A stretch of DNA of 10,759 bases from a virus (taxonomy: Duplodnaviria > Heunggongvirae > Uroviricota > Caudoviricetes), in the IMG/VR virus record IMGVR_UViG_2713896834_000012, positions 1 through 10,759 of that record; one strand, given 5' to 3'. The position numbers and the translations under genes were made by a program. Position 1 is the stretch's first letter; every line of letters begins with the position of its first letter. Positions 489-10,759 of this stretch are shown here, piece by piece. The notes beneath the pieces are model-generated. The model saw only the letters and a list, made by a program, of their open reading frames with translations, had not been told where the DNA came from and searched no databases.

Positions 489-1070
489 ATGAAAAAACTG
501 GAGACGATAGGATTCGACACCAAAAAAGACCTGCTTATCTCGGTTGGCGATTTGGTCGATCGCGGTACAGAGAACGTCGAATGCCTGGAATTAATCACAT
601 TCCCCTGGTTCAGAGCTGTACGTGGAAACCATGAGCAAATGATGATTGATGGCTTATCAGAGCGCGGAAACGTCAATCACTGGATGCTTAATGGCGGTGG
701 CTGGTTCTTTAATATCGATTACGACAAAGAAATTCTGGCTAAAGATCTTGCCCATAAAGCAGATGAACTTCCGTTAATCATCGAACTGGTGAGCAAAGAT
801 AAAAAATATGTCATCTGCCACGCCGATTATCCTTGTGACGAATACGAATTTGGAAAGCCAGTTGATCATCAGCAGGTAATCTGGAACCGCGAACGAATCA
901 GCAACTCACAAGACGGGATCGTGAAAGAAATTAAAGGCGCGGACACGTTCATCTTTGGTCATACGCCAGCAGTGAAACCACTCAAGTTTGCCAACCAGAT
1001 GTATATAGATACCGGCGCAGTGTTCTGCGGAAACCTCACATTGATTCAGGTACAGGGAGAAGGCGCATGA
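489..1070 (+). CDS. Lambda-type Ser/Thr protein phosphatase (orf221/NinI, PrpA/PrpB family), N-terminally truncated; probably non-functional
   Basis: 193-aa ORF with metallophosphatase motifs GDLVDRG and GNHE and C-terminus ...[13 protein letters not shown], near-identical to the lambda phosphatase as I recall it. The first about 35-40 residues, including the GDxHG metal-binding motif, are missing. The frame is open upstream to 288 but encodes unrelated sequence. Confidence 0.8.
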
Positions 1071-1690
1071 GACTCGAAAGCGTAGCTAAATTTCATTCGC
1101 CAAAAAGCCCGATGATGAGCGACTCACCACGGGCCACGGCTTCTGACTCTCTTTCCGGTACTGATGTGATGGCTGCTATGGGGATGGCGCAATCACAAGC
1201 CGGATTCGGAATGGCTGCATTCTGCGGTAAGCATGAACTCAGCCAGAACGACAAACAAAAGGCTATCAACTATCTGATGCAATTTGCACACAAGGTATCG
1301 GGGAAATACCGTGGTGTGGCAAAGCTCGAAGGAAATACTAAGGCAAAGGTACTGCAAGTGCTCGCAACATTCGCTTATGCGGATTATTGCCGTAGTGCCG
1401 CGACGCCGGGCGCAAGATGCAGAGATTGCCACGGTACAGGCCGTGCGGTTGATATAGCAAAAACAGAGCAGTGGGGGAGAGTTGTTGAGAAAGAGTGCGG
1501 AAGATGCAAAGGTGTCGGCTATTCAAGAATGCCAGCAAGCGCAGCATATCGCGCTGTAACGATTCTAATCCCAAACCTTACTCAACCCACATGGTCACGC
1601 ACTGTTAAGCCGCTGTATGACGCTCTGGTGGTGCAATGCCACAAAGAAGAGTCAATCGCAGACAACATTTTGAATTCGGTCACACGTTAG
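1067..1690 (+). CDS. Q: Late-gene antiterminator Q (lambda Q type), 207 aa
   Basis: Protein [27 protein letters not shown]... matches lambda Q essentially along its full length (from memory). ATGA start/stop overlap with the phosphatase gene. GGGAGAAGG RBS at 1055-1063. Zinc-binding CRDCHGTG...CGRCKG. Confidence 0.93.
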
Positions 1691-1732
1691 CAGCATGATT
1701 GCCACGGATGGCAACATATTAACGGCATGATA

Positions 1733-1761
1733 TTGACTTTTTGAATAAAGTTGGGTAAATT
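1733..1761 (+). promoter_or_regulatory. Late promoter pR' with Q-binding (qut) element
   Basis: -35 TTGACT (1733-1738), 17-nt spacer, -10 TAAATT (1756-1761), about 45 nt after the Q stop. Nearly identical to the lambda pR' TTGACTTATTGAATAAAATTGGGTAAATT as I recall it (2 differences). Confidence 0.7.
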
Positions 1762-1797
1762 TGACCCAACGATGGATAAATGCACTCGTTAAATAAA

Positions 1798-1826
1798 GCC
1801 CTGAGTTAATAGCTCGGGGCTTTTTG
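1798..1826 (+). terminator. Promoter-proximal intrinsic terminator (candidate tR' analogue)
   Basis: 8-bp stem (1798-1805 gccctgag pairs with 1813-1820 ctcggggc, one G-U pair), 7-nt loop, then TTTTT (1821-1825). Lies about 30-58 nt downstream of the predicted pR' start. Confidence 0.45.
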
Positions 1827-1968
1827 CGTTTTAAGCACGGCCTTTCTGAAAGCACATCAAACCAAATACCAGACAGACAAAAATAATCACCTTATCCGCT
1901 GTGGCTACGTTGTGGTGTGCTTTGCATAAAAGAAAACCAGCTCAATGGCTGGCTTCGTGAAAGCGGGT

Positions 1969-2004
1969 GGCAGGAGGTCGCGCTAACAACCTCCTGCCGT
2001 TTTG
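1969..2004 (+). terminator. Conserved GC-rich stem-loop with U-tract, about 120 nt upstream of S
   Basis: ggcaggagg (1969-1977), 12-nt loop, cctcctgcc (1990-1998), then GTTTTG. The same element sits upstream of S in lambda (from memory). Terminator-like, but its function here is not established. Confidence 0.4.
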
Positions 2005-2103
2005 CCCGTGCATATCGGTCACGAACAAATCTGATTGCTAAACACAGTAGCCTGGATTTGTTCTATCAGTAATCGACCTTATTCCTAATTAAATAGAGCA
2101 AAT

Positions 2104-2117
2104 CCCCTTATTGGGGG
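2104..2117 (+). promoter_or_regulatory. sdi-like stem-loop controlling the S107/S105 dual start
   Basis: cccc (2104-2107), ttatt loop, ggggg (2113-2117), immediately upstream of the Met-Lys-Met start of S, as in lambda. Confidence 0.6.
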
Positions 2118-2123
2118 TAAGAC

Positions 2124-2447
2124 ATGAAGATGCCAGAAAAACATGACCTGTTAGCCGCCATTCTCGCGGCAAAGGAACAAGGCATCGGGGCAATCCTTGC
2201 GTTTGCAATGGCGTACCTTCGCGGCAGATATAATGGCGGTGCGTTTACAAAAACAGTAATCGACGCAACGATGTGCGCCATTATCGCCTGGTTCATTCGT
2301 GACCTTCTCGACTTCGCCGGACTAAGTAGCAACCTCGCTTATATAACGAGCGTGTTCATCGGCTACATCGGTACTGACTCGATTGGTTCGCTTATCAAAC
2401 GCTTCGCTGCTAAAAAAGCCGGAGTAGAAGATGGTGGAAATCAATAA
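2124..2447 (+). CDS. S: Holin S (class I; dual start, S107 antiholin at 2124 and S105 holin at 2130)
   Basis: 107-aa protein [39 protein letters not shown]... essentially identical to lambda S (from memory), with three transmembrane segments. Confidence 0.95.
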
Positions 2448-2907
2448 TCAACGTAAGGCGTTCCTCGATATGCTGGCGTGGTCAGAGGGAACTGATAACG
2501 GACGACAGAAAACCAGAAATCATGGTTATGACGTCATTGTTGGCGGAGAGCTATTCACTGATTACTCCGATCACCCTCGCAAACTTGTCACGCTAAACCC
2601 AAAACTCAAATCAACAGCAGCCGGACGTTACCAGCTTCTTTCCCGTTGGTGGGATGCCTACCGCAAGCAGCTTGGACTGAAAGACTTCTCTCCGAAAAGC
2701 CAGGACGCTGTGGCATTGCAGCAGATTAAGGAGCGTGGCGCTTTGCCGATGATTGATCGTGGTGATATTCGTCAGGCAATCGACCGTTGCAGCAATATCT
2801 GGGCTTCACTGCCTGGGGCTGGTTATGGTCAGTTCGAGCATAAGGCTGACAGCCTGATTGCAAAATTCAAAGAAGCAGGGGGAACGGTCAGAGAGATTGA
2901 GGTATGA
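2431..2907 (+). CDS. R: Endolysin R (lytic transglycosylase)
   Basis: 158-aa protein [39 protein letters not shown]... matches lambda R (from memory). Overlaps the 3' end of S by 17 nt. Confidence 0.95.
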
Positions 2908-3341
2908 GCAGAGTCACCGCGATTATCTCCGCTCTGGTTATCTGCATCATCGTCTGTCTGTCATGGGCTGTTAATCATTACCGTGATAACGCCATCGCCT
3001 ATAAAGAACAGCGCGATAAAGCCACGTACATCATCGCTGACATGCAGAAGCGTCAACGTGATGTAGCAGAACTCGACGCCAGATACACAAAGGAGCTTGC
3101 TGATGCTAACGCGACTATCGAAAGTCTCCGTGCTGATGTTTCTGCTGGGCGTAAGCGCCTGCAAGTCGCCGCCACCTGTGCAAGGTCAACGACCAGAGCC
3201 AGCGGCATGGGCGATGGAGAAAGCCCAGGACTTACAGCAGATGCTGAACTCAATTATTACCGTCTCCGAAGTGGAATCGACAAGATAACCGCGCAGGTTA
3301 ACTACCTGCAGGAATACATCAGGATGCAATGCCTGAAATGA
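2904..3341 (+). CDS. Rz: Inner-membrane spanin Rz (i-spanin)
   Basis: ATGA overlap with the R stop. N-terminus [31 protein letters not shown]... is lambda Rz-like with an N-terminal transmembrane helix and predicted coiled coil. The central region diverges from lambda. Confidence 0.85.
3103..3288 (+). CDS. Rz1: Outer-membrane lipoprotein spanin Rz1 (o-spanin), embedded in the +1 frame of Rz
   Basis: AGGAG (3091-3095) 7 nt upstream of ATG 3103. Signal peptide [20 protein letters not shown] with lipobox VSAC, followed by a proline-rich stretch ([13 protein letters not shown]). The track's 3097 start is a TTG in the same frame. Confidence 0.7.
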
Positions 3342-3377
3342 TCGGGCGATGAAAACCAAAAAAAACAGGAGCAATAC

Positions 3378-3653
3378 ATGACTAAGCTTTATCACCGCAT
3401 CTCAACTTTTCTCTCTGGTTGCTGGGCGTTTATCACGTCTATTTCGTTCGCCATCTTTAGTTTCGGTAGCACAGCGTGCTCGCTTAGTCGGGGTCTGTGG
3501 CGTGCTATTTCAGCACTAGCGCCGAAATTTTTACCTGAAAAGGCTGTTTGGCGAATTGTAGAGCGAATGTGTAGTGAGAGCGTTCGCGAGAAGATTAACG
3601 TATTTGGACGTCATCCTCGAAATACAGGCGCATTGTGCAGTCCGTTACTGTAG
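3378..3653 (+). CDS. Hypothetical protein, 91 aa, hydrophobic N-terminal segment (possible membrane protein)
   Basis: Strong RBS (AGGAG at 3367-3371, 6 nt before the ATG). Occupies the position where lambda carries bor, but on the opposite strand and with unrelated sequence. No family recognised. Confidence 0.45.
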   Translation: MTKLYHRISTFLSGCWAFITSISFAIFSFGSTACSLSRGLWRAISALAPKFLPEKAVWRIVERMCSESVREKINVFGRHPRNTGALCSPLL

Positions 3654-3654
3654 T

Positions 3655-3690
3655 CATTCCAAATCCCATCTACGGGTGGGCTTGATAATG
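3655..3690. repeat. Intergenic motif copy A (CATTCC...CTACGGGTGGGCTTGATAATG), imperfect hairpin
   Basis: Begins 2 nt after the stop of the 3378-3653 ORF. Shares CATTCC plus CTACrGrGTGG.CTT(T)GATAATG with 4319-4346. Confidence 0.5.
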
Positions 3691-3745
3691 AAACCGTGAT
3701 TTACATCCCCACAATCCGGGTATGTAAAAGATAGTTCAGGCGAGA

Positions 3746-3765
3746 ACAGATTTAACTAAATCTGT
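3746..3765. promoter_or_regulatory. Perfect palindrome ACAGATTTA-AC-TAAATCTGT (9-bp arms)
   Basis: Read directly from the sequence. Lies in the 283-nt non-coding gap between 3653 and 3937. Candidate dimeric protein-binding site or RNA hairpin. Confidence 0.4.
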
Positions 3766-3936
3766 GCACCACCAGTTGCGGCAGTACAGCGAAACAACCC
3801 AAGCCAGAAAGTGGGGAAATAACACTGGCAGCCACTGAAAGATGAACCTCCAGCCTTATGGCAAAAAAGATTCTTTGTGGTGGCGGACTGATGGAAAGAC
3901 ATCCTAATCAAGCAACCACTCTACAGGGTCATAATT

Positions 3937-4305
3937 ATGAACGACAAGCAAATTGAAAAAGAAATCGCAGCCAAGGGTAAGGCGGCTCGCGTTACTCCTG
4001 AACACATTGCCAGCATAATCGCCAGCGAACATTACTTTACGGCCGCTGATGGTGCTCGCTTTGCTCATGTGCAGAGAAGCGAAACATACAGCGTAAAAAT
4101 CCCAGACCAGCCTGACGAGCTGGAGCTGCTGACATTCTGCGTTCTGGTGCTGAAGAATGGCTTTACGGTCACCGGGGAAAGCGCCTGCGCCAGCCCAGAG
4201 AACTTCGATGAAGAAATCGGGCGCAAGATTGCTCGCCAGAATGCTGTAAACAAAATCTGGATGCTCGAAGGTTACTTGCTGAAGCAGAAGCTAAGCGAAC
4301 AGTAG
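3937..4305 (+). CDS. Phage protein of unknown function, 122 aa (possibly the gp49/Sf6-gp66-like family found upstream of terminase genes)
   Basis: Clean ORF located between the lysis cassette and the small terminase gene. Family assignment is tentative and from memory only. Confidence 0.55.
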   Translation: MNDKQIEKEIAAKGKAARVTPEHIASIIASEHYFTAADGARFAHVQRSETYSVKIPDQPDELELLTFCVLVLKNGFTVTGESACASPENFDEEIGRKIARQNAVNKIWMLEGYLLKQKLSEQ

Positions 4306-4318
4306 TTATTACAAAAGC

Positions 4319-4346
4319 CATTCCCTACAGAGTGGCTTTGATAATG
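4319..4346. repeat. Intergenic motif copy B (CATTCC-CTACAGAGTGGCTTTGATAATG), hairpin aaagcca/tggcttt
   Basis: Begins 14 nt after the stop of the 3937-4305 ORF. 7-bp stem (4314-4320 pairs with 4333-4339). Related to copy A and to the sequence just before the ATG at 3937 (CTACAGGGTCATAATTATG). Confidence 0.5.
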
Positions 4347-4408
4347 GCTTATACCCTACACGGGATAACTTAACTGATATCCCTTTTAACGGATAAACGG
4401 AGCCAACA

Positions 4409-4651
4409 ATGGCAGAGATTATTCCCATGACTGAAGAACAGAAATTCCAGCTAGAGATTTACAAACTGGTCATGAACCAGAACGCAGCCGCAGAGGAAGC
4501 ATTTCAATTTATTGGCACTGACGAACTGAAGCTTGAGCTATTCAAAATTCACTTCCAGTCAGGCGGCGCTAATTCAGATATCACGACCCGCACAATCGAA
4601 GCGGTGCGTAAATCGAAGGAAGCGTTAGACCTGTTCACTACCGGAGCATAA
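4409..4651 (+). CDS. Hypothetical small acidic phage protein, 80 aa
   Basis: GGAG RBS (4399-4402) 6 nt before the ATG. Its stop (4649-4651) lies 2 nt before the small terminase start, suggesting co-transcription. Confidence 0.5.
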   Translation: MAEIIPMTEEQKFQLEIYKLVMNQNAAAEEAFQFIGTDELKLELFKIHFQSGGANSDITTRTIEAVRKSKEALDLFTTGA

Positions 4652-4653
4652 AC

Positions 4654-5094
4654 ATGGCGCGCCCAACAAAGTATCAAGAGGCGTATGCCGAACAGGCACG
4701 CAAACTGTGCTTGCTGGGCTACACCGATGCAGAGCTTGCTGATTTCTTCGAAGTCAGTGAGTCAACTATTAACAAGTGGAAGCTCGATTATCCTAAGTTT
4801 TCGGAGTCCATAAAAAAGGGTAAGGCCGTCGCTGATGCAGAAGTTAGTGACCGTCTTTATCAACGCGCTATGGGCTTCGTGGCTCCAGACATCGATATTC
4901 GTGTTATTGAAAACAGAATTGTCGAAACTCCGCTTGAGAAGTATTACCCGCCTGATACAACAGCTGCCATCTTCTGGCTTAAGAACCGACAGAAGGATAA
5001 ATGGCGCGACAAGGTTGATCACGAGCTAACAGGCAAAGACGGCGGCGCAATTCAGATTGAAACATCACCGATGAGCACTCTATTCGGAAAATGA
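4654..5094 (+). CDS. Terminase small subunit (HTH DNA-binding), 146 aa
   Basis: N-terminal HTH-like segment (...GYTDAELADFFEVSESTINKWK...). Immediately precedes the large terminase subunit and is translationally coupled to it by an ATGA overlap at 5091-5094. Confidence 0.75.
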   Translation: MARPTKYQEAYAEQARKLCLLGYTDAELADFFEVSESTINKWKLDYPKFSESIKKGKAVADAEVSDRLYQRAMGFVAPDIDIRVIENRIVETPLEKYYPPDTTAAIFWLKNRQKDKWRDKVDHELTGKDGGAIQIETSPMSTLFGK

Positions 5095-6314
5095 CCTCGA
5101 TTAATCCTATCTTTGAACCGTTCATTGAGGCGCATCGCTACAAAGTCGCCAAAGGCGGTCGAGGTAGCGGTAAGTCATGGGCAATTGCTAGGCTGCTTGT
5201 TGAAGCGGCGCGTCGTCAGCCAGTGCGTATTCTCTGCGCTCGTGAACTGCAAAACAGTATCAGCGATTCGGTAATCCGGTTGCTTGAAGATACCATCGAG
5301 CGGGAAGGGTATTCGGCTGAGTTTGAAATTCAGCGTTCAATGATTCGTCATCTCGGTACGAATGCTGAATTCATGTTCTACGGCATCAAAAACAACCCGA
5401 CGAAGATTAAATCGCTCGAAGGCATTGATATCTGCTGGGTGGAAGAAGCGGAAGCGGTAACGAAGGAATCATGGGATATCCTGATACCAACCATCCGCAA
5501 GCCGTTTTCCGAAATATGGGTGAGCTTTAACCCGAAAAACATCCTCGACGATACCTATCAGCGATTCGTCGTAAATCCTCCCGATGATATTTGTCTGCTG
5601 ACAGTGAACTACACCGACAACCCGCACTTTCCTGAAGTTCTCCGTCTGGAGATGGAAGAGTGTAAACGCAGAAATCCGACACTGTATCGTCACATCTGGC
5701 TTGGTGAGCCAGTAAGCGCAAGTGATATGGCAATCATCAAACGTGAATGGCATGAAGCCGCAACCGATGCGCACAAGAAACTCGGATGGAAAGCGAAAGG
5801 CGCTGTTGTCTCTGCGCATGACCCATCAGATACAGGGCCAGATGCTAAAGGTTATGCATCGCGTCACGGTTCGGTAGTTAAGCGCATTGCTGAAGGTCTG
5901 CTGATGGACATCAACGAGGGTGCTGACTGGGCTACTTCGCTGGCGATTGAAGACGGTGCTGACCACTACCTGTGGGATGGCGATGGCGTTGGTGCCGGGC
6001 TACGCAGACAGACAACGGAAGCGTTCTCCGGCAAGAAAATCACCGCCACGATGTTCAAGGGCAGCGAATCGCCATTCGATGAAGATGCTCCGTATCAGGC
6101 CGGAGCATGGGCTGATGAAGTAGTACAGGGCGACAACGTTCGCACTATTGGCGATGTGTTCCGCAATAAGCGAGCGCAATTCTATTACGCGCTGGCTGAC
6201 AGGCTGTATCTAACCTGCAGAAGCTTGGTAAGGTTGCTGATAACGAGACTATTTCAAAACTTCAGTCCTATCGTGATGAGCTTGTTCGCAATGCTGGTCC
6301 AGATGGTCCGGTAA
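5091..6314 (+). CDS. Terminase large subunit (PBSX/Sf6-like family), C-terminally truncated or frame-disrupted; probable pseudogene
   Basis: Walker A motif KGGRGSGKS near the N-terminus, ATPase and RNase-H-like nuclease regions recognisable to about residue 372 (...RAQFYYALADRLYLT). The last about 35 residues (CRSLVRLLITRLFQNFSPIVMSLFAMLVQMVR) look like out-of-frame junk. No portal gene follows. Confidence 0.85.
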   Translation: MTSINPIFEPFIEAHRYKVAKGGRGSGKSWAIARLLVEAARRQPVRILCARELQNSISDSVIRLLEDTIEREGYSAEFEIQRSMIRHLGTNAEFMFYGIKNNPTKIKSLEGIDICWVEEAEAVTKESWDILIPTIRKPFSEIWVSFNPKNILDDTYQRFVVNPPDDICLLTVNYTDNPHFPEVLRLEMEECKRRNPTLYRHIWLGEPVSASDMAIIKREWHEAATDAHKKLGWKAKGAVVSAHDPSDTGPDAKGYASRHGSVVKRIAEGLLMDINEGADWATSLAIEDGADHYLWDGDGVGAGLRRQTTEAFSGKKITATMFKGSESPFDEDAPYQAGAWADEVVQGDNVRTIGDVFRNKRAQFYYALADRLYLTCRSLVRLLITRLFQNFSPIVMSLFAMLVQMVR

Positions 6315-6997
6315 ATCTGGATTTGAAGCAATTAAGCGATCTGCGCAGCCAGTTCAGAATGGACGTGAAGGGTGAGCGACCAGTGTTACCAAACCGTTCC
6401 GATGCTGCCATTCAGCGCGTTTACAAGGCAATGACTGACGATATCAATGGTGCCATTGGTCAGAATCTTGGCAACGATACTCTCCGTAAATATCAGCAGG
6501 CCAATGCCGTCTACGCTGACGAAGCGGCGAAGCTAAAGAATACCAGGCTGAAGAATGTTCTCATGAAAGGCGACCTGACGCCGGAAGTTGTCAACAACAT
6601 GCTATTCAGCAAGAACAAATCGGAAATTAAGACGCTGTATAACTCAGTTGGTCGTGTTGGCAGGGCGCAAATGCGCAATGGCATCATTGGAAAGGCGATG
6701 GAGAAATCTGGCGGATCCCCTGACCAGTTCCTTCGGCAGCTTAACATCCTGCAAAACCAGACTGGCATCACATTTAAGGGGCAGGACGCTGCTTATCTGA
6801 AAGGATTGAAAAAATACCTTCAGTCCACTCAGCAGGCAGCAAAAGCGGCAGTAACAACACCAACAGGGCAGCAAACCATCCCGTTCATTATCGGGTATGG
6901 GACGGCAACGAACCCGGCGACAACTGGCGCAGCAGTAAGCTACGGACTTCTTACTCGCGCCTATGAGAGCGAACCATTCAGAAATGCAATGCTCTGA
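6200..6997 (+). pseudogene. 3' fragment of a virion structural gene (possibly the last ejection/injection protein upstream of the tailspike), lacking its 5' end
   Basis: Frame +2 is open from 6200 (preceded by TGA at 6197-6199) to the stop at 6995-6997, with no ATG until far downstream. The track's 6323 start is a TTG. The translation is Q/N/K/A/G-rich (QAVSNLQKLGKVADNETISKLQSYRDELV...). Gene identity is inferred from synteny only. Confidence 0.4.
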
Positions 6998-7217
6998 ATG
7001 GCAAATACCCCACGCGGATCAACAGCGTTTGAGAAAGCCTTGCAGCAGGCACAAAAGGCAATTAACGCGCTGACCCAAGGCGCTAAGTCTGATGCGTTGT
7101 CTGAATAGTTTCGAAAACACCAGGAACGTGCAAAAACCAAATATGTAGAACGCAATATTCAACAGATCTCTTTGCATAGACTCATCTCATAATTAACAGA
7201 TCATAACTGACATTAGT

Positions 7218-7253
7218 GCAATGCCGGGCAAGTTGCATCTTGTCCGGCATTGC
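7218..7253 (+). promoter_or_regulatory. Very stable 15-bp stem-loop immediately upstream of the tailspike RBS
   Basis: 7218-7232 pairs with 7239-7253 (14 Watson-Crick pairs plus one G-U), loop ttgcat. No U-tract follows. The tailspike SD (GGAG, 7261-7264) lies 8 nt downstream. Confidence 0.4.
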
Positions 7254-7272
7254 TACGTCCGGAGCAAATTAA

Positions 7273-9453
7273 ATGACAGACATTACAGCCAATGTTGTAG
7301 TAAGCATGCCTTCGCAACTCTTCACTATGGCGCGTTCTTTTAAAGCCGTAGCCAATGGCAAAATTTATATCGGTAAAATTGACACTGACCCAGTAAATCC
7401 TGAAAACCAGATTCAGGTTTATGTGGAGAACGAAGACGGCTCTCACGTTCCTGTTTCGCAACCAATCATCATTAACGCTGCTGGTTACCCTGTATATAAC
7501 GGACAGATTGCCAAATTCGTTACCGTGCAAGGCCATTCTATGGCTGTTTATGACGCGTATGGTGCACAGCAATTCTATTTTCCGAATGTACTTAAGTACG
7601 ACCCTGCCGCACTAAAATATGACTTGGAAGCTCCGTATGGCATGTCGATTATTGGGGAGTTCGAATCGGTAGCGGACTTGCAATCCTTCTCCCAGTTGTC
7701 CCTGATTGATAACGGGGAGAGAGTGTCGGTAAAAAGCTTTCATGCTGGAAGAGGTGTTGGTGGTGGTTATTTCAGATGGTTGGCCACAAGCACGCTGGCT
7801 GATGACGGATTTTCTGTCATCAAACCAACCGCTGTTACTGGTTCCGGGCGATGGGTAAACGTGAAGAGAGGTGCGCTTACTCCACCAGAGTGTGGGGCTG
7901 TTCCTGATGATTCTACTTTCGACAGTGCTACCGGACTTTCAAACTGGGCTACTCAAAACCGCTGCATTGGTAGTCCTGGTGTGTTTAGATCATCAACTGG
8001 GATAGTATTTACAGGCAGTAATCCATGGGTTACTGCCGATCGTATGACGATTGAATATACTGCACCAGAGATTAACGGCGTTATGGTAACCACTAACGAC
8101 CAGACTATATTTCAAGTTGAGGGACTGGAAGTTAAAAACGTTAGTGCGACACCATCTACGGCTGCCGCAACTGCAAATGGATTTAGAATGATTGGGCTTA
8201 AGCAGGCATTTGTTAGGCGCTGCAGAAGCATCGGATGGAAAAATGCAGGGATATTCTTCCAGAGCTGCAGGCAGTGGGAAGCTATTGATAATTTATGCTG
8301 GCTTAATGATTGGGACCTAACCAATACATTTGCCTCCGGTGGGGATATCGTTTCCTACACTGGAACGCCAGGCGCTTCAAAGGGAGGGAAAATAATTGGT
8401 AATTTACTGCTTTCCGATGCAAGCCAAGGAATTAACGTAAACGCACTGTCTGCTGATAGGGAAATCATCATTGCAAATAACACGATCCTTACCTATAACA
8501 CTGATTTCACAACGAAAGATTTCTCTCTCATTAATAAAAGACATGGTATTGAGTTTGGGTACAAAAGTAATCAGACTTACGGAGGCTCGATACTTATTGC
8601 AAACAATATTATTCGTGATACGAACTGGACTGGTATTTACCGTTCTGGTGGAGCGGATGGTTCTGTTTCTTATCCACCATCAATGATTCATGGCAATTTG
8701 ATCCATAACGTTGGTATGAAAATTGATGCATCCAATATCTCTGGTGGTATTCTAATTGGTGATATAGTTGATGGTGACATACTATCTAACAATATTGTTT
8801 CTGGTTTTGGTCAATTATCATCTGGTGCCTATCGGATACAGGATTCGGTTGGAAGCGGTAAGCTCACAATGAACAACAATGTAGACTTTGATAGCAAGGG
8901 GTCAGGTATATACATAACTGGTGAGGCTAATGGTGTGGTTGTTAACGGTCACAGAACTGTCAGAGCTTCAGGTTATAGCGTATTCCTTGCCCCCGTATCA
9001 GGAGCTACAGTTTTTGGCGATCACGTACTAAATAACATCGTGGTTGAAAGGACTACGGATGGTTACGGTGTTGTATTTGCTTCAGGCGCTGCGACAACAA
9101 GCTCTCTGAATAATCTAAATGCAAAAGGAACCTTCACAAACGCCACTACTAACTCAGCTGTATATGTGGCAGGAACACCTTCAAATGCAATAATTATCGG
9201 AGGCGTCATTAAAGGGTTTGCGTATGGAGTCTGGTGTCAGTCTTATGTCGACACTACAATCCAACTTCCATGGGGTGGCATAACCTTCATTGGTACAATA
9301 AATGCTTTCAGGCTGGCAAGGACAACAGGAACCGCAAATGCGTTTGTAAATCCTAATTTTTTCTATGGCGTAACTAATAGATTCTCAAATGGTGGCACAG
9401 GTACCAGTAATGGAGCAGAAAGATTATTGGTTAATGGGGCTGTTGTGGCATAA
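7273..9453 (+). CDS. Tailspike protein: P22-type N-terminal head-binding domain plus right-handed beta-helix receptor-binding (probable glycanase) domain, 726 aa
   Basis: N-terminus [13 protein letters not shown]...[27 protein letters not shown]...[13 protein letters not shown]...NVLKYDP matches the P22/Sf6/HK620 tailspike head-binding domain (from memory). The remainder has beta-helix-like repeats ([29 protein letters not shown]). GGAG RBS 8 nt upstream. Confidence 0.9.
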
Positions 9454-9475: not shown

Positions 9476-10759
9476 CATAAGCGCTAACTTAAGGGTTGAA
9501 CCATCTGAAGAATGCGACGCCTCGGTGCCTCGTTAAGACGATGCCTCGCGTTCTTCAATTGCGTTTTGTAGGCTGTCAGGGATACTGTCCCACGAATGGC
9601 CACCTGTAAGCTCCAGATGACCATTTTTGTTATTCTCCACAACGAGTTAGTTCTTCTTTTCGGATCCGGCACTTCTGGGGGGGAAATCCAGCGATGGCTG
9701 GATTATGTCGTCAATTAAAAATGCGGCGAGTAGATTAGCAAATATCCACGCTTTCGCGAGTTCAGGTTCCTTTGCACGCAAAGCATCCAGGTGCAGCAAA
9801 CTTTTGAGCCGCTTAAAAGCCAGTTCAATTTGCCATCGCAGACGGTAACAATCAGCCACTTGCTCTGCTGAATATTCATCTTCCGGTAATGATGTTAGCA
9901 ATAGCACATGGCCCGCTGCTTCCAGCGTTTCCGCCTGAACTACTCGTCCTTTTCGACGATTCTCGCTGAGCAGTCGGGTTTTACTGATTAATGCTTTTTC
10001 GGGAGGAAGTGATACGGCAATGAGACGTGCCGGAAAGGGAGCTCCGGCTTTTTTATTACCTGAATTGCCTATCATTACAGTGGTTTCACCGTTCTTACCG
10101 CAATCCAGCCCGCGCAGAAAACCCATCATGTCAAAGCGCATTCCTTCTGCAGTTAACCAGCGCAATCCTCGCCAGTGAACCCGGACGATATAATCAGCTT
10201 CTCCAAAAGCAAGTGAGCGGATACATTCGGGACGCGAACCGAATCCCCGGTCAGCAATGCGTATCTCGTCTGCCGTTTGCGCAAATCGGTCCAGCCGTTC
10301 AGCGTCTCTGCTGTCGGTTAGCTCAAAATCAGTGAACTGACAGGTATGAGGATCATATCCCATATGTAGTCGCCATTCAGCGCTGCCGCCCCCGGGCGCA
10401 CTGATTGCTGTTCCATCGACAAGACGCAATCTCTTTCCGCTTGTACAACCCGTAACTGCGGCGCGTACAGCAAGTGTTTGTGCGGCAAGTATGCCAAACC
10501 AGTCGGCGGCATTCCGCAGCCGCTTCAGGAGAGCCACGTCAGATAATGTTGCAACGTCATGGAGCTGAGCCCATGCAGTGACTTCACGTAATGACATCCC
10601 CCCGGGGCCGTAAGCCAGCCCCAGACGTAGCAGAGTTGCAGCATCACGAATTTCGCGGCGGCGGGTTAGAGCCCCGGCATTACGTGCCGAAGTATCCAGT
10701 TCTTCGGGCTTACCAATATGGGCCAGAATTGCTGACCAGTTATCGTGAGAGTAATTCAT
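9476..10759 (-). mobile_element. IS186 (IS4 family), partial; the far end lies beyond the window
   Basis: Terminal inverted repeat CATAAGCGCTAACTTAAGGGTTG begins at about 9476. It is flanked by GGGGGGTGTCACCCC (9462-9476), the G-run/C-run target type IS186 is known to prefer. Contains the complete insL-type transposase. Boundary is accurate to about 1 nt. Confidence 0.9.
9647..10759 (-). CDS. insL: IS186 transposase (IS4 family, DDE), 370 aa
   Basis: Protein MNYSHDNWSAILAHIGKPEELDTSARNAG... with the IS4-family motif YRLRWQIELAFKRLK. The start codon is the last 3 nt of the window (10759-10757), stop at 9649-9647. Confidence 0.95.
   Translation of the reverse strand: MNYSHDNWSAILAHIGKPEELDTSARNAGALTRRREIRDAATLLRLGLAYGPGGMSLREVTAWAQLHDVATLSDVALLKRLRNAADWFGILAAQTLAVRAAVTGCTSGKRLRLVDGTAISAPGGGSAEWRLHMGYDPHTCQFTDFELTDSRDAERLDRFAQTADEIRIADRGFGSRPECIRSLAFGEADYIVRVHWRGLRWLTAEGMRFDMMGFLRGLDCGKNGETTVMIGNSGNKKAGAPFPARLIAVSLPPEKALISKTRLLSENRRKGRVVQAETLEAAGHVLLLTSLPEDEYSAEQVADCYRLRWQIELAFKRLKSLLHLDALRAKEPELAKAWIFANLLAAFLIDDIIQPSLDFPPRSAGSEKKN

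What the first reader, a model, noticed from the sequence alone, without database searches (positions are those of the whole stretch)
3378..3653. Unknown ORF with strong RBS at the classical moron position after the lysis cassette
In lambda this position holds bor, on the opposite strand. Here a 91-aa plus-strand ORF with a strong RBS and a hydrophobic N-terminal segment (FLSGCWAFITSISFAIFSF) is present instead. The slot between lysis and packaging genes often holds accessory cargo (lysogenic conversion or defence genes), so this is a candidate new accessory gene. I could not assign a family, and it may also be an over-called ORF.
Basis: inference. Interest (0 to 1): 0.45.

Follow-up and report, generated by a model that had tools for sequence, protein, structure and literature searches.

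The report
Unannotated small membrane gene after spanins
The 91-codon ORF is a real, conserved phage gene for a small, probably membrane-anchored protein of unknown function that nearly always sits next to the host-lysis genes of temperate enterobacterial phages and that standard annotation pipelines usually miss.

Summary
The ORF at 3378-3653 (+) exists as described. It has an AGGAG ribosome-binding site 6 nt upstream and a hydrophobic segment at residues 11-29.

It is a real gene. Homologues of 87-93 aa occur in E. coli, Enterobacter, Citrobacter and Klebsiella (pro)phages. Between clades dN/dS is 0.33, and 0.10 for the C-terminal 39 codons with saturated synonymous sites. 63 of 66 viral loci are intact.

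It matches only PHROGs 34701 and 24233 (unknown function). Pfam, NCBIfam, PADLOC and PDB gave nothing. PGAP leaves it unannotated in nearly all listed E. coli matches.

It lies immediately after the spanin genes in 66 of 66 viral loci, and beside a lysis cassette in 6 of the 8 distant-homologue contexts where flanking genes could be read. This holds across six endolysin classes and several holin and spanin types. No promoter-like site precedes it.

My best reading (about 50%) is a late-expressed, membrane-tethered accessory factor of the lysis cassette, not a promoter-bearing moron. The slot is nevertheless variable: Sf6 and HK620 hold other genes there. Within the E. coli clade constraint looks relaxed (pN/pS about 0.9-1.1). 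Function is untested.

The parts
3367..3371 (+). Shine-Dalgarno AGGAG, 6 nt before the ATG
   Evidence: Read from the sequence. CAGGAG is conserved 6-8 nt upstream of the start in the main clades, and a purine-rich SD-like motif is present in the distant homologues.
3378..3653 (+). Gene X: a 91-aa small basic protein (net charge +8). It belongs to PHROG 34701/24233 and is identical to phage HK140 gp68.
   Evidence: ORF. phrog_34701 E 7e-57. HK140 and N7 carry an identical copy. Purifying selection acts on this frame only. Composition.
3408..3464 (+). Codons 11-29: hydrophobic, Ser/Thr-rich segment, a predicted membrane anchor
   Evidence: KD mean 1.69. A hydrophobic first segment is present in all 64 family members, with mean 17-residue KD 1.72. 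It forms part of a long helix (residues 2-51) in the AF2 model, at pLDDT about 80-89.
3534..3650 (+). Codons 53-91: the highly conserved basic C-terminal region, PEKAxW[RK]IVERMCSESVREKINVFGRHPRNTGALCSPLL. The last ~15 residues are predicted disordered.
   Evidence: 19 invariant columns in A1. W58, E62, L86 and P89 are invariant across 64 sequences. dN/dS is 0.10, with 31 of 39 third positions variable. pLDDT is below 50 for residues 87-91.
2124..2447 (+). Lambda-type class I holin S, with an MKM dual start
   Evidence: PF05106, E 2.4e-30.
2431..2907 (+). Lambda R-type endolysin; soluble, with no N-terminal hydrophobic segment
   Evidence: Translation. Annotated as endolysin or GH24 protein in HK140, Sf6 and RefSeq.
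2904..3341 (+). Rz i-spanin. Its stop lies 36 nt before gene X.
   Evidence: PF03245, E 1.1e-33. Rz ends 35-37 nt upstream of X in the Rz-type loci.
3097..3288 (+). Rz1 o-spanin lipoprotein, embedded in Rz
   Evidence: PF06085, E 4.2e-20.
1733..1823 (+). PR'-like late promoter (1733-1761) and tR'-like terminator (1795-1823). This is the only + strand promoter-like site upstream of gene X in 1600-3378.
   Evidence: HK140 annotates the homologous PR'/qut.
3665..3690 (+). Hairpin CCCATC-TACG-GGTGGG followed by CTTGATAATG. It starts the conserved non-coding segment that follows whichever gene occupies this slot. It has no U-run, so it is not a canonical terminator.
   Evidence: Sequence. Alignment of the window, Sf6, HK620 and HK140. 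The motif is repeated at 4332-4346. The terminator scan did not call it.

Best explanation
Gene X is a genuine protein-coding gene of the Q-dependent late operon. It is translated from its own strong SD just after the spanin genes.

It encodes a 91-aa basic protein with three parts:
- an N-terminal hydrophobic helix that anchors it in the inner membrane;
- a variable amphipathic linker, which is a second transmembrane helix in some distant relatives;
- a strongly conserved, positively charged C-terminal region, probably cytoplasmic, that ends in a disordered tail with the motif STGALxSPLL.

I infer that it is an accessory, non-essential component of the lysis cassette. It would be made together with holin, endolysin and spanins and would modulate lysis (timing or efficiency). 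Its conserved tail would contact something common to all these phage-host pairs, such as a host inner-membrane or cytoplasmic factor or a generic membrane property, rather than one particular holin, endolysin or spanin.

Shown: it is coding, it is under purifying selection between clades, it has a conserved SD, it has a hydrophobic N-terminus, and it is persistently adjacent to lysis cassettes.

Inferred: membrane insertion and topology, late-only expression, and any role in lysis.
For: Coding:
- pN/pS is 0.33 overall and 0.10 for codons 53-91 with saturated synonymous sites. Off-frames give 0.97-2.0 or carry stops.
- Length is conserved at 87-93 aa across 64 sequences.
- 63 of 66 loci are intact and the SD is conserved.

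Membrane character:
- The first segment is TM-grade in the whole family.
- Relatives with a second TM-grade segment have no K/R in the loop after TM1. Relatives without one have 2-4 K/R there. The C-terminal 38 aa are net +1 to +5 in all members. This fits a cytoplasmic C-terminal region in both forms.
- AF2 gives a long helix over residues 2-51.

Link to lysis:
- X lies directly after Rz/Rz1 or other spanins in 66 of 66 IMG/VR loci, including loci with GH19 or GH108 endolysins and non-Rz spanins.
- Of 8 distant homologues whose flanking genes could be read, 5 lie after Rz or another spanin and 1 lies 200 nt upstream of holin-lysozyme-Rz. In two of these phages the cassette sits at the prophage end next to the integrase, not before the terminase genes.
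- X identity tracks Rz identity (Spearman 0.86, n=62).

Late expression: no promoter-like site was found upstream. Terminator-like hairpins abut the SD in L073, L079 and L080.

Precedent: Mu gp25 releasin is a 99-aa membrane-tethered cytoplasmic protein encoded after the spanins (PMC9239132). P1 carries several accessory holin-like proteins (PMC9025707, abstract as listed).
Against: - No experiment and no homology ties X to lysis.
- The post-lysis position and the prophage end are also classic cargo slots, so guilt by association is confounded.
- Sf6 (Rz 94% identical) lacks X, and HK620 has unrelated genes in the slot, so X is dispensable.
- Every cassette examined already has holin candidates, and this window's holin has its own dual-start antiholin.
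- Two distant homologues (P0060, and the marginal hit P0067) are not next to lysis genes.
- Within the E. coli clade X shows 14 amino-acid-changing versus 4-5 synonymous polymorphic codons (pN/pS 0.9-1.1). Neighbouring genes give 0.05-0.30. The family-invariant Pro89 is Ser in many E. coli copies.
- Topology is ambiguous for the one-TMD form: the N-terminal flank carries +2.
- The promoter scan is a crude consensus scan.
Confidence: 0.5

Rival explanations
1. X is accessory cargo unrelated to lysis. On this reading it is a small membrane protein, for example for superinfection exclusion or host-envelope modification, that merely occupies a permissive insertion slot at the end of the lysis cassette. 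This is moron-like in the comparative sense.
For: - The slot is demonstrably variable: Sf6 holds gene 65 and HK620 holds hkbK/hkbL, and both join the same downstream conserved segment.
- X is rare: 113 of 5426 E. coli genomes and only 3 distinct phage isolates among 50,697 records.
- Constraint within E. coli is relaxed.
- In two lineages X is the last gene before the integrase, which is another cargo hot spot.
- By the definition quoted in PMC2629481, a moron 'appears to be inserted when compared across related phages'.
Against: - No promoter-like site was found, and no canonical terminator flanks the gene in this window (also for promoters).
- Upstream terminators leave no room for a promoter in several relatives.
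- There is no PADLOC or defence match.
- Cargo genes normally turn up at different places in different phages. X stays beside lysis genes in siphoviruses, P22-like podoviruses and unrelated prophage types.
Confidence: 0.35
2. X is a holin- or antiholin-type protein in the strict sense. It would be a second hole-former, or a direct inhibitor or partner of the cassette's holin.
For: - It meets the generic holin description: small, at least one TMD, basic C-terminus, encoded in the cassette.
- Distant members have two TM-grade segments and an inferred N-in/C-in layout like class II holins.
Against: - No Pfam holin family is matched. The only hit is 1 of 18 members to Phage_holin_2_2 at E 0.095.
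- The strongly conserved C-terminal sequence is kept while the neighbouring holin families change: PF05106, PF04971, PF16931/PF05449 and unclassified ones. This argues against a holin-specific partner.
- The window's holin already encodes its own antiholin form through the MKM dual start.
Confidence: 0.1
3. The ORF is over-called or non-functional. Alternatively, the conservation reflects a nucleotide-level element or an antisense gene.
For: - PGAP leaves it unannotated in nearly all of the E. coli genomes listed.
- Its codon-position GC pattern is atypical, with GC2 above GC1.
- The annotators of the Klebsiella phage split it into a truncated ORF and an antisense ORF.
- 3 of 66 copies are disrupted.
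- The within-E. coli pattern is near neutral.
Against: - Synonymous sites are saturated while the protein is kept (dN/dS 0.10 in the C-terminal region). Third positions vary at 81 of 91 codons, second positions at 41 of 91.
- All antisense frames carry stops in every representative.
- Start codon, SD and length are conserved down to about 25-30% identity.
- There is no Rfam match.
Confidence: 0.03
4. X is a Bor-like or bacteriocin-release-protein-like lipoprotein, suggested by LSGC at residues 12-15.
Against: - Only about 4 hydrophobic residues precede the Cys, whereas the hydrophobic stretch continues for 14 residues after it.
- Cys15 is not conserved in distant members. One close member has AEC and one has SGG.
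- There is no Pfam Bor hit.
Confidence: 0.02

Closest known systems
PHROG 34701 / PHROG 24233 (unknown function); phage HK140 gp68 (AFH20309.1, 'hypothetical protein')
   Same: X is a full-length sequence member: E 7e-57 over positions 1-91 of the 91-position profile. It is identical to HK140 gp68 and to an unannotated ORF in phage N7.
   Different: Nothing differs in sequence. The family has no described function, structure or phenotype.
Phage Mu gp25 'releasin' (DUF2730, PF10805; PMC9239132)
   Same: It is of similar size (99 aa against 91 aa). It has an N-terminal membrane anchor with the bulk of the protein proposed to be cytoplasmic. It is encoded just downstream of the spanin genes and before the packaging genes, and it is an add-on to the canonical lysis proteins.
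   Different: - There is no sequence relationship: no PF10805 hit at E up to 1.
- The gp25 cytoplasmic domain is anionic, whereas X is basic (+8).
- gp25 serves SAR endolysins in a holin-less phage. X occurs with holins and with soluble endolysins of six classes.
Holins and antiholins (e.g. class II S21, T4 RI, P1 LydB/LydC/LydD)
   Same: These are small membrane proteins encoded in lysis cassettes, with basic C-termini. Some relatives of X have two hydrophobic helices with an inferred N-in/C-in layout.
   Different: - X has no homology to any Pfam holin family.
- It is never the only holin candidate in its cassette.
- Its C-terminal sequence motif is far more conserved than is usual for holin tails, and it is independent of holin type.
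Lambda Bor and other genes of the post-lysis slot (Sf6 gene 65, HK620 hkbK/hkbL)
   Same: They occupy the same genomic slot between Rz and the packaging region. Sf6 gp65 is also a small protein with an N-terminal hydrophobic segment.
   Different: - Bor lies on the opposite strand, is a lipoprotein, and (from general knowledge of lambda, not checked here) has its own promoter.
- X lies on the late strand, has no conserved lipobox and no promoter-like site.
- X shows no sequence similarity to gp65 or hkbL by inspection of their translations.

Membership tests
PHROG 34701 (uncharacterised phage protein family) | Full-length match to the family profile | tested here: met
   E 7e-57, residues 1-91 against profile positions 1-91 of 91. 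All 18 of 18 diverse members match.
Moron (Hendrix/Casjens sense; definition quoted in PMC2629481) | Appears as an insertion when related phage operons are compared | tested here: met
   X is present in the window, HK140 and N7. Sf6 and HK620 hold other genes at the same junction.
Moron (Hendrix/Casjens sense; definition quoted in PMC2629481) | Own promoter, giving expression independent of the late operon | tested here: not met
   No sigma-70-like site lies upstream of X on the + strand between PR' and the ORF, and none in L041, L079, L080 or L082. This is a consensus scan only, so weak promoters could be missed.
Moron (Hendrix/Casjens sense; definition quoted in PMC2629481) | Own terminator directly downstream | tested here: inconclusive
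   The window has a hairpin at 3665-3680 without a U-run, which the scan did not call. L082 has a bidirectional terminator after X, shared with the integrase gene.
Moron (Hendrix/Casjens sense; definition quoted in PMC2629481) | Expressed from the prophage, with a benefit to the lysogen | not testable with these tools
   This needs RNA-seq or reporter assays in lysogens.
Holin (functional class) | Small protein with at least one TMD and a charged, basic C-terminus, encoded with an endolysin | tested here: met
   KD 1.69 for residues 11-29 and a C-terminal 38 aa of net +3. X lies 470 nt downstream of the endolysin gene, in the same cassette.
Holin (functional class) | Sequence membership in a described holin family | tested here: not met
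   Pfam hmmscan of 18 members at E up to 1 gave a single non-significant hit, to Phage_holin_2_2 at E 0.095.
Holin (functional class) | Lethal, timed permeabilisation of the inner membrane | not testable with these tools
   This needs induction experiments.
Mu gp25 releasin / DUF2730 | PF10805 (DUF2730) signature | tested here: not met
   No hit at E up to 0.1 for X or at E up to 1 for 18 family members.
Mu gp25 releasin / DUF2730 | N-terminal TMD with an anionic cytoplasmic domain (PMC9239132) | tested here: not met
   An N-terminal hydrophobic helix is present, but the rest of the protein is basic: K+R 10 against D+E 4 in residues 30-91.
Mu gp25 releasin / DUF2730 | Paired with a SAR endolysin that it releases | tested here: not met
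   The window's endolysin is lambda R-type with no N-terminal hydrophobic segment. The partner endolysins of relatives belong to six different classes.
Bor / bacterial lipoprotein | Conserved lipobox after a signal peptide of adequate length; Pfam Bor family | tested here: not met
   LSGC occurs at residues 12-15, but the preceding hydrophobic stretch is only about 4 residues. The Cys is not conserved in the wider family. There is no Pfam hit.
Known anti-phage defence proteins (PADLOC-DB v2) | Match to any defence-system HMM | tested here: not met
   0 families for 18 members at E up to 1.

The most novel reading that the evidence does not exclude
X defines a new, widespread class of lysis-cassette protein in temperate phages of Enterobacterales. 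It would be a membrane-tethered adaptor whose invariant, disordered C-terminal peptide (…N-x-F-G-x-x-P-R-x-T-G-A-L-x-S-P-L-L) docks onto a conserved host inner-membrane or cytoplasmic factor. Through this it would tune or license envelope disruption independently of which holin, endolysin or spanin the phage carries, as a fifth functional component beside holin, endolysin, i-spanin and o-spanin.
Probability: 0.25. Interest if true: 0.6.

Novelty: new variant of a known kind. Interest (0 to 1): 0.4.

Why it matters
Lambda-type lysis cassettes are a textbook system, usually described as complete with holin/antiholin, endolysin and the two spanins. Here a conserved extra gene keeps its place next to these genes across at least six endolysin classes and several phage architectures, yet it is invisible in most RefSeq E. 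coli annotations.

Two practical consequences follow:
- It is a concrete annotation gap. The exact protein occurs on at least 1000 public contigs and is called 'hypothetical' at best.
- It is a cheap, testable candidate for a new lysis modulator. HK140 and N7 are plaque-forming phages that carry a copy identical to the window's.

If the gene turns out to be unrelated cargo, it is still an example of how small membrane proteins with atypical codon-position GC (GC2 above GC1) escape gene callers.

Tried and rejected
- **Family searches.** Pfam, NCBIfam, PADLOC and PDB-sequence searches found no informative hit.
- **RNA elements.** An Rfam scan of the whole window gave only a spurious MIR399 hit at 7214-7257. 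There are no tRNAs.
- **Genome-contig scan with the family alignment.** It gave one dubious 33-aa match in a Sphaerobacteraceae MAG and was not used.
- **AlphaFold2.** With 28 sequences the mean pLDDT was 60. With 64 sequences it was 72, with pTM 0.30, giving essentially one long helix plus a disordered tail. That is too simple for fold comparison, and Foldseek against BFVD returned nothing. I did not run further fold searches.
- **Lipoprotein idea.** Rejected, because the Cys is not conserved and the pre-Cys hydrophobic stretch is too short.
- **Antisense ORF.** A 94-106 aa antisense ORF is seen in L041, L050 and L056. I rejected it because the antisense frames carry stops in all representatives, including the window.
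- **Frame-shifting indel among E. coli copies.** The 316 versus 317 nt matches map to the upstream A-run.
- **Co-evolution of X with Rz.** The correlation exists (rho 0.86), but Sf6 (Rz 94%, no X) and L010 (X 100%, Rz 73%) show that the pair can be separated.
- **Plasmids.** Only 2 records matched.
- **Literature.** I found nothing on this family.

Full report
**Setting**

The window is the late region of a lambdoid, Sf6/HK620-like (P22-type) prophage. In order it holds:
- a truncated NinI-type phosphatase (489-1070, PF00149);
- Q (1067-1690, PF03589);
- a PR'-like promoter (1733-1761) and a tR'-like terminator (1795-1823);
- holin S (2124-2447, PF05106);
- R endolysin (2431-2907);
- Rz (2904-3341, PF03245) with embedded Rz1 (3097-3288, PF06085);
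- the ORF in question (3378-3653);
- 283 nt without an accepted gene;
- a gp49/Sf6-gp66 protein (3937-4305, PF13876);
- DUF2560 (4409-4651);
- small and large terminase genes;
- a tailspike (7273-9453, PF09008 head-binding domain);
- a DDE transposase (9647-10759, minus strand).

An identical region in E. coli KBN10P04869 lies next to sbcB in a visibly degraded prophage: the integrase, phosphatase and TerL are pseudogenes and an IS100 sits in the tailspike.

**Observation**

A 91-codon ORF is not in itself beyond chance here, because longer ORFs that fall inside or antisense to the assigned genes occur in the window. The case therefore rests on comparative evidence.

**Is it a gene? Yes.**

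- A search of 5.8 billion proteins found 53 clusters at 55-99% identity. All but two short fragments are 84-93 aa, mostly 90-91 aa, and come from E. coli, Enterobacter and Citrobacter; the Klebsiella sources of cluster 3 come.
- A profile search of 1.84 billion representatives added 14 more distant members of 87-93 aa.
- 66 IMG/VR loci were fetched. 63 are intact, one has a nonsense codon, one a frameshift and one an altered N-terminus.
- On a codon alignment of 33 unique sequences, third positions vary at 81 of 91 codons and second positions at 41 of 91. Pooled pN/pS among 11 divergent representatives is 0.33: 0.49 for codons 1-52 and 0.10 for codons 53-91, with synonymous sites saturated. 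The two other sense frames give 0.97 and 1.73, and all three antisense frames contain stops in every representative.
- CAGGAG is conserved 6-8 nt upstream of the ATG in the main clades, and a purine-rich SD-like motif precedes it in the distant homologues.
- The 1-bp length polymorphism among E. coli copies lies in the upstream A-run.

A caveat applies. Within the young E. coli clade (13-14 unique sequences, at least 96% identical) there are 14 amino-acid-changing against 4-5 synonymous polymorphic codons, giving pN/pS 0.9-1.1. Measured the same way in the same loci, R, S, Q and DUF2560 give 0.05-0.10 and Rz gives 0.30. The family-invariant Pro89 is Ser in many E. coli copies. Constraint is therefore strong between clades but looks relaxed recently in E. 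coli prophages, many of which are defective.

**What is the protein?**

It matches PHROG 34701 (E 7e-57, full length) and, through its C-terminal region, PHROG 24233. Both are of unknown function. Nothing matched in Pfam, NCBIfam, PADLOC or PDB sequences. Every source calls it 'hypothetical protein'. The exact sequence is HK140 gp68 (AFH20309.1) and occurs on at least 1000 contigs.

It has been overlooked rather than studied:
- PGAP leaves it unannotated in all but one of the 40 E. coli matches listed, out of 113 matching genomes.
- Phage N7's annotators missed it.
- The Klebsiella phage ST15-VIM1phi2.1 record splits it into a truncated ORF and an antisense ORF.
- Its GC2 (0.53) exceeds its GC1 (0.45), unlike every neighbouring gene. 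I infer, without having tested it, that this atypical pattern is why ab initio gene callers skip it.

Sequence anatomy:
- The N-terminal flank is short and positive (mean 1.7 K/R across the family; +2 in the window's copy).
- A hydrophobic, Ser/Thr-rich helix follows, present in all 64 members (mean 17-residue KD 1.72).
- Next comes a variable segment. In the enterobacterial branch it is amphipathic and Arg-rich. In six members, mainly distant ones, it is a second TM-grade helix (17-residue KD of at least 1.6).
- The C-terminus is the conserved block W[RK][IV][IV]ER…[LI]N.[FY]G…[RK]STG[AS]L.SPLL, net +1 to +5.

Members with two hydrophobic helices have no K/R between them, and members with one have 2-4 K/R after it. 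By the positive-inside rule this places the conserved C-terminal region in the cytoplasm in both forms. This is an inference, and the one-TMD topology remains ambiguous.

The lipobox-like LSGC is not conserved, and neither are the other cysteines, so a lipoprotein or a disulfide-dependent periplasmic domain is unlikely. AlphaFold2 with 64 sequences (mean pLDDT 72, pTM 0.30) gives one long helix over residues 2-51, two short helices and a disordered tail over the most conserved residues. That is what a partner-binding peptide would look like, but the model is too simple for fold searching, and BFVD gave no match.

**Context: the most informative result**

- In all 66 viral loci the gene follows the spanin genes. 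Where a lambda-type Rz is present, even at only 36-57% identity, the Rz stop lies 35-37 nt upstream.
- In loci with a GH19 or GH108 endolysin and other spanin types the gap is 120-190 nt.
- Among the distant homologues, P0059, P0061, P0064 and P0065 follow muramidase-holin-holin-Rz cassettes. In P0064 and P0065 these lie at the prophage end next to the integrase, not before the terminase genes.
- P0055 follows a holin_8/holin_3_7/M15-peptidase/DUF2570 cassette.
- P0062 lies 200 nt upstream of holin_2_1/T4-type lysozyme/Rz.
- Only P0060 (a T7-like head/terminase region) and the marginal hit P0067 are elsewhere.
- For P0054 and P0057 the upstream side is cut off or uninformative.
- Each cassette already has its own holin candidates.
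- X identity tracks Rz identity (rho 0.86, n=62). The pair is separable, though: Sf6 has a 94%-identical Rz but carries gene 65 instead of X, and L010 has an identical X with a 73% Rz.

**Is it a moron?**

In the comparative sense, partly. The slot between Rz and a conserved downstream segment holds X here and in HK140 and N7, a 50-aa hydrophobic gp65 in Sf6, and KilA-N plus hkbL in HK620. X lacks the other hallmarks:
- No sigma-70-like site lies upstream on the + strand other than PR', and none was found in four other loci.
- In L073, L079 and L080 a terminator-like hairpin ends 15-25 nt before the SD, which leaves no room for a promoter.
- There is no canonical terminator after the gene in the window.

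It should therefore be transcribed only by Q-modified polymerase, together with the lysis and morphogenesis genes. This is an inference from consensus scans.

**Mechanism proposed**

I propose a late-expressed, inner-membrane-tethered protein whose basic, conserved cytoplasmic tail contacts a factor common to all these phage-host pairs and thereby modulates lysis. The closest functional analogy is Mu gp25 releasin: 99 aa, an N-terminal TMD, a cytoplasmic domain, and a gene located after the spanins (PMC9239132). X is not a DUF2730 protein, it is basic rather than acidic, and it occurs with holins and soluble endolysins, so it is not a releasin. Accessory holin-like proteins such as those of P1 (PMC9025707) are another analogy.

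I put about 50% on a lysis-related role, 35% on unrelated membrane cargo in a permissive slot, 10% on a strict holin or antiholin, and under 5% on an artefact or a lipoprotein.

**Verdict**

The interpretation as an 'accessory gene in a variable slot' is partly right, but the defence or lysogenic-conversion flavour has no support. The gene is known to databases only as a hypothetical protein. It is a moderately interesting, cheaply testable candidate for a new lysis-cassette component, and its function remains unproven.

Noticed in passing
window 3654-3903 (core 3771-3903): A segment of about 250 nt with no accepted gene starts 2-5 nt after the stop of whichever gene occupies the post-Rz slot. 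It is 92-98% identical in 163 phage records, including Sf6, HK620, IME10, many Salmonella P22-like phages and the HK97-like HK140. The 133-nt core is kept in 19 unique sequences with long invariant runs. HK140 lacks about 59 nt of the 5' part. There is no Rfam hit. RNA folding z-scores are only -1.9 (+ strand) and -2.4 (- strand), and the variable columns show no clear 3-periodicity. Its function is unknown.
   Followed up: partly
window 3665-3690 and 4318-4346: The motif 'short hairpin followed by (C/T)TTGATAATG' occurs after the stop of gene X and again after the stop of gp66. In HK620 and HK140 the conserved segment runs through a related ...CGACAATG junction straight into the sequence that in the window follows the second copy (4340-4408, upstream of DUF2560). 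gp66 therefore looks like a cassette inserted between two such junctions. These may be mosaic 'boundary sequences'.
   Followed up: partly
window 3378-3653 versus its neighbours, in loci L004-L034: Within the E. coli clade gene X shows pN/pS of about 0.9-1.1, while R, S, Q and DUF2560 show 0.05-0.10. The family-invariant Pro89 is replaced by Ser in many copies. This suggests recent relaxation of constraint in E. coli prophages.
   Followed up: yes
window 489-1070, 5091-6314, 6323-6997; L087: The prophage is defective. The phosphatase lacks its N-terminus. TerL (PF04466) is cut after about 380-407 codons. The next ORF is what RefSeq annotates as an N-terminally truncated lytic-transglycosylase-domain pseudogene, so the whole portal-to-tail-accessory block is missing. 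In KBN10P04869 the integrase is also a pseudogene and an IS100 interrupts the tailspike.
   Followed up: partly
window 3097-3288: The embedded Rz1 o-spanin gene (PF06085, E 4e-20) is not annotated by PGAP in the RefSeq genome, just like gene X.
   Followed up: yes
window 7214-7257 (- strand hit; palindromic): A strong GC-rich inverted repeat, GCAATGCCGG(A/G)CAAG…CTTG(C/T)CCGGCATTGC, lies just upstream of the tailspike gene. It was picked up as a spurious MIR399 match (23 bits against a gathering score of 57). It is probably a terminator or attenuator before the tailspike gene.
   Followed up: no
L085 1335-1487 (Sf6 gene 65); L056 3698-3871: Other occupants of the post-spanin position are also very small proteins with an N-terminal hydrophobic helix: Sf6 gp65 (50 aa) and a 57-aa ORF in L056 between the o-spanin gene and X. 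Small membrane proteins may be a recurrent feature of this slot.
   Followed up: no
L073, L079, L080, L041/L042/L050, immediately upstream of the X homologues: A hairpin of the type (G)CCTCGC-loop-GCG(G/A)GG(C) precedes the SD of X homologues in several unrelated loci. It carries a T-run in L073 and L079. L080 has a different GC-rich terminator hairpin (GCCCGG-TTCGT-CCGGGC followed by a T-run) in the same position. The recurrent arrangement is therefore terminator, then SD, then gene.
   Followed up: partly
L088 2501-2773 (Klebsiella phage ST15-VIM1phi2.1): In the GenBank record the intact X homologue (61.5% identical over the full length) is replaced by a 43-aa C-terminal fragment CDS and a 38-aa antisense CDS. 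This is an annotation error worth correcting.
   Followed up: yes
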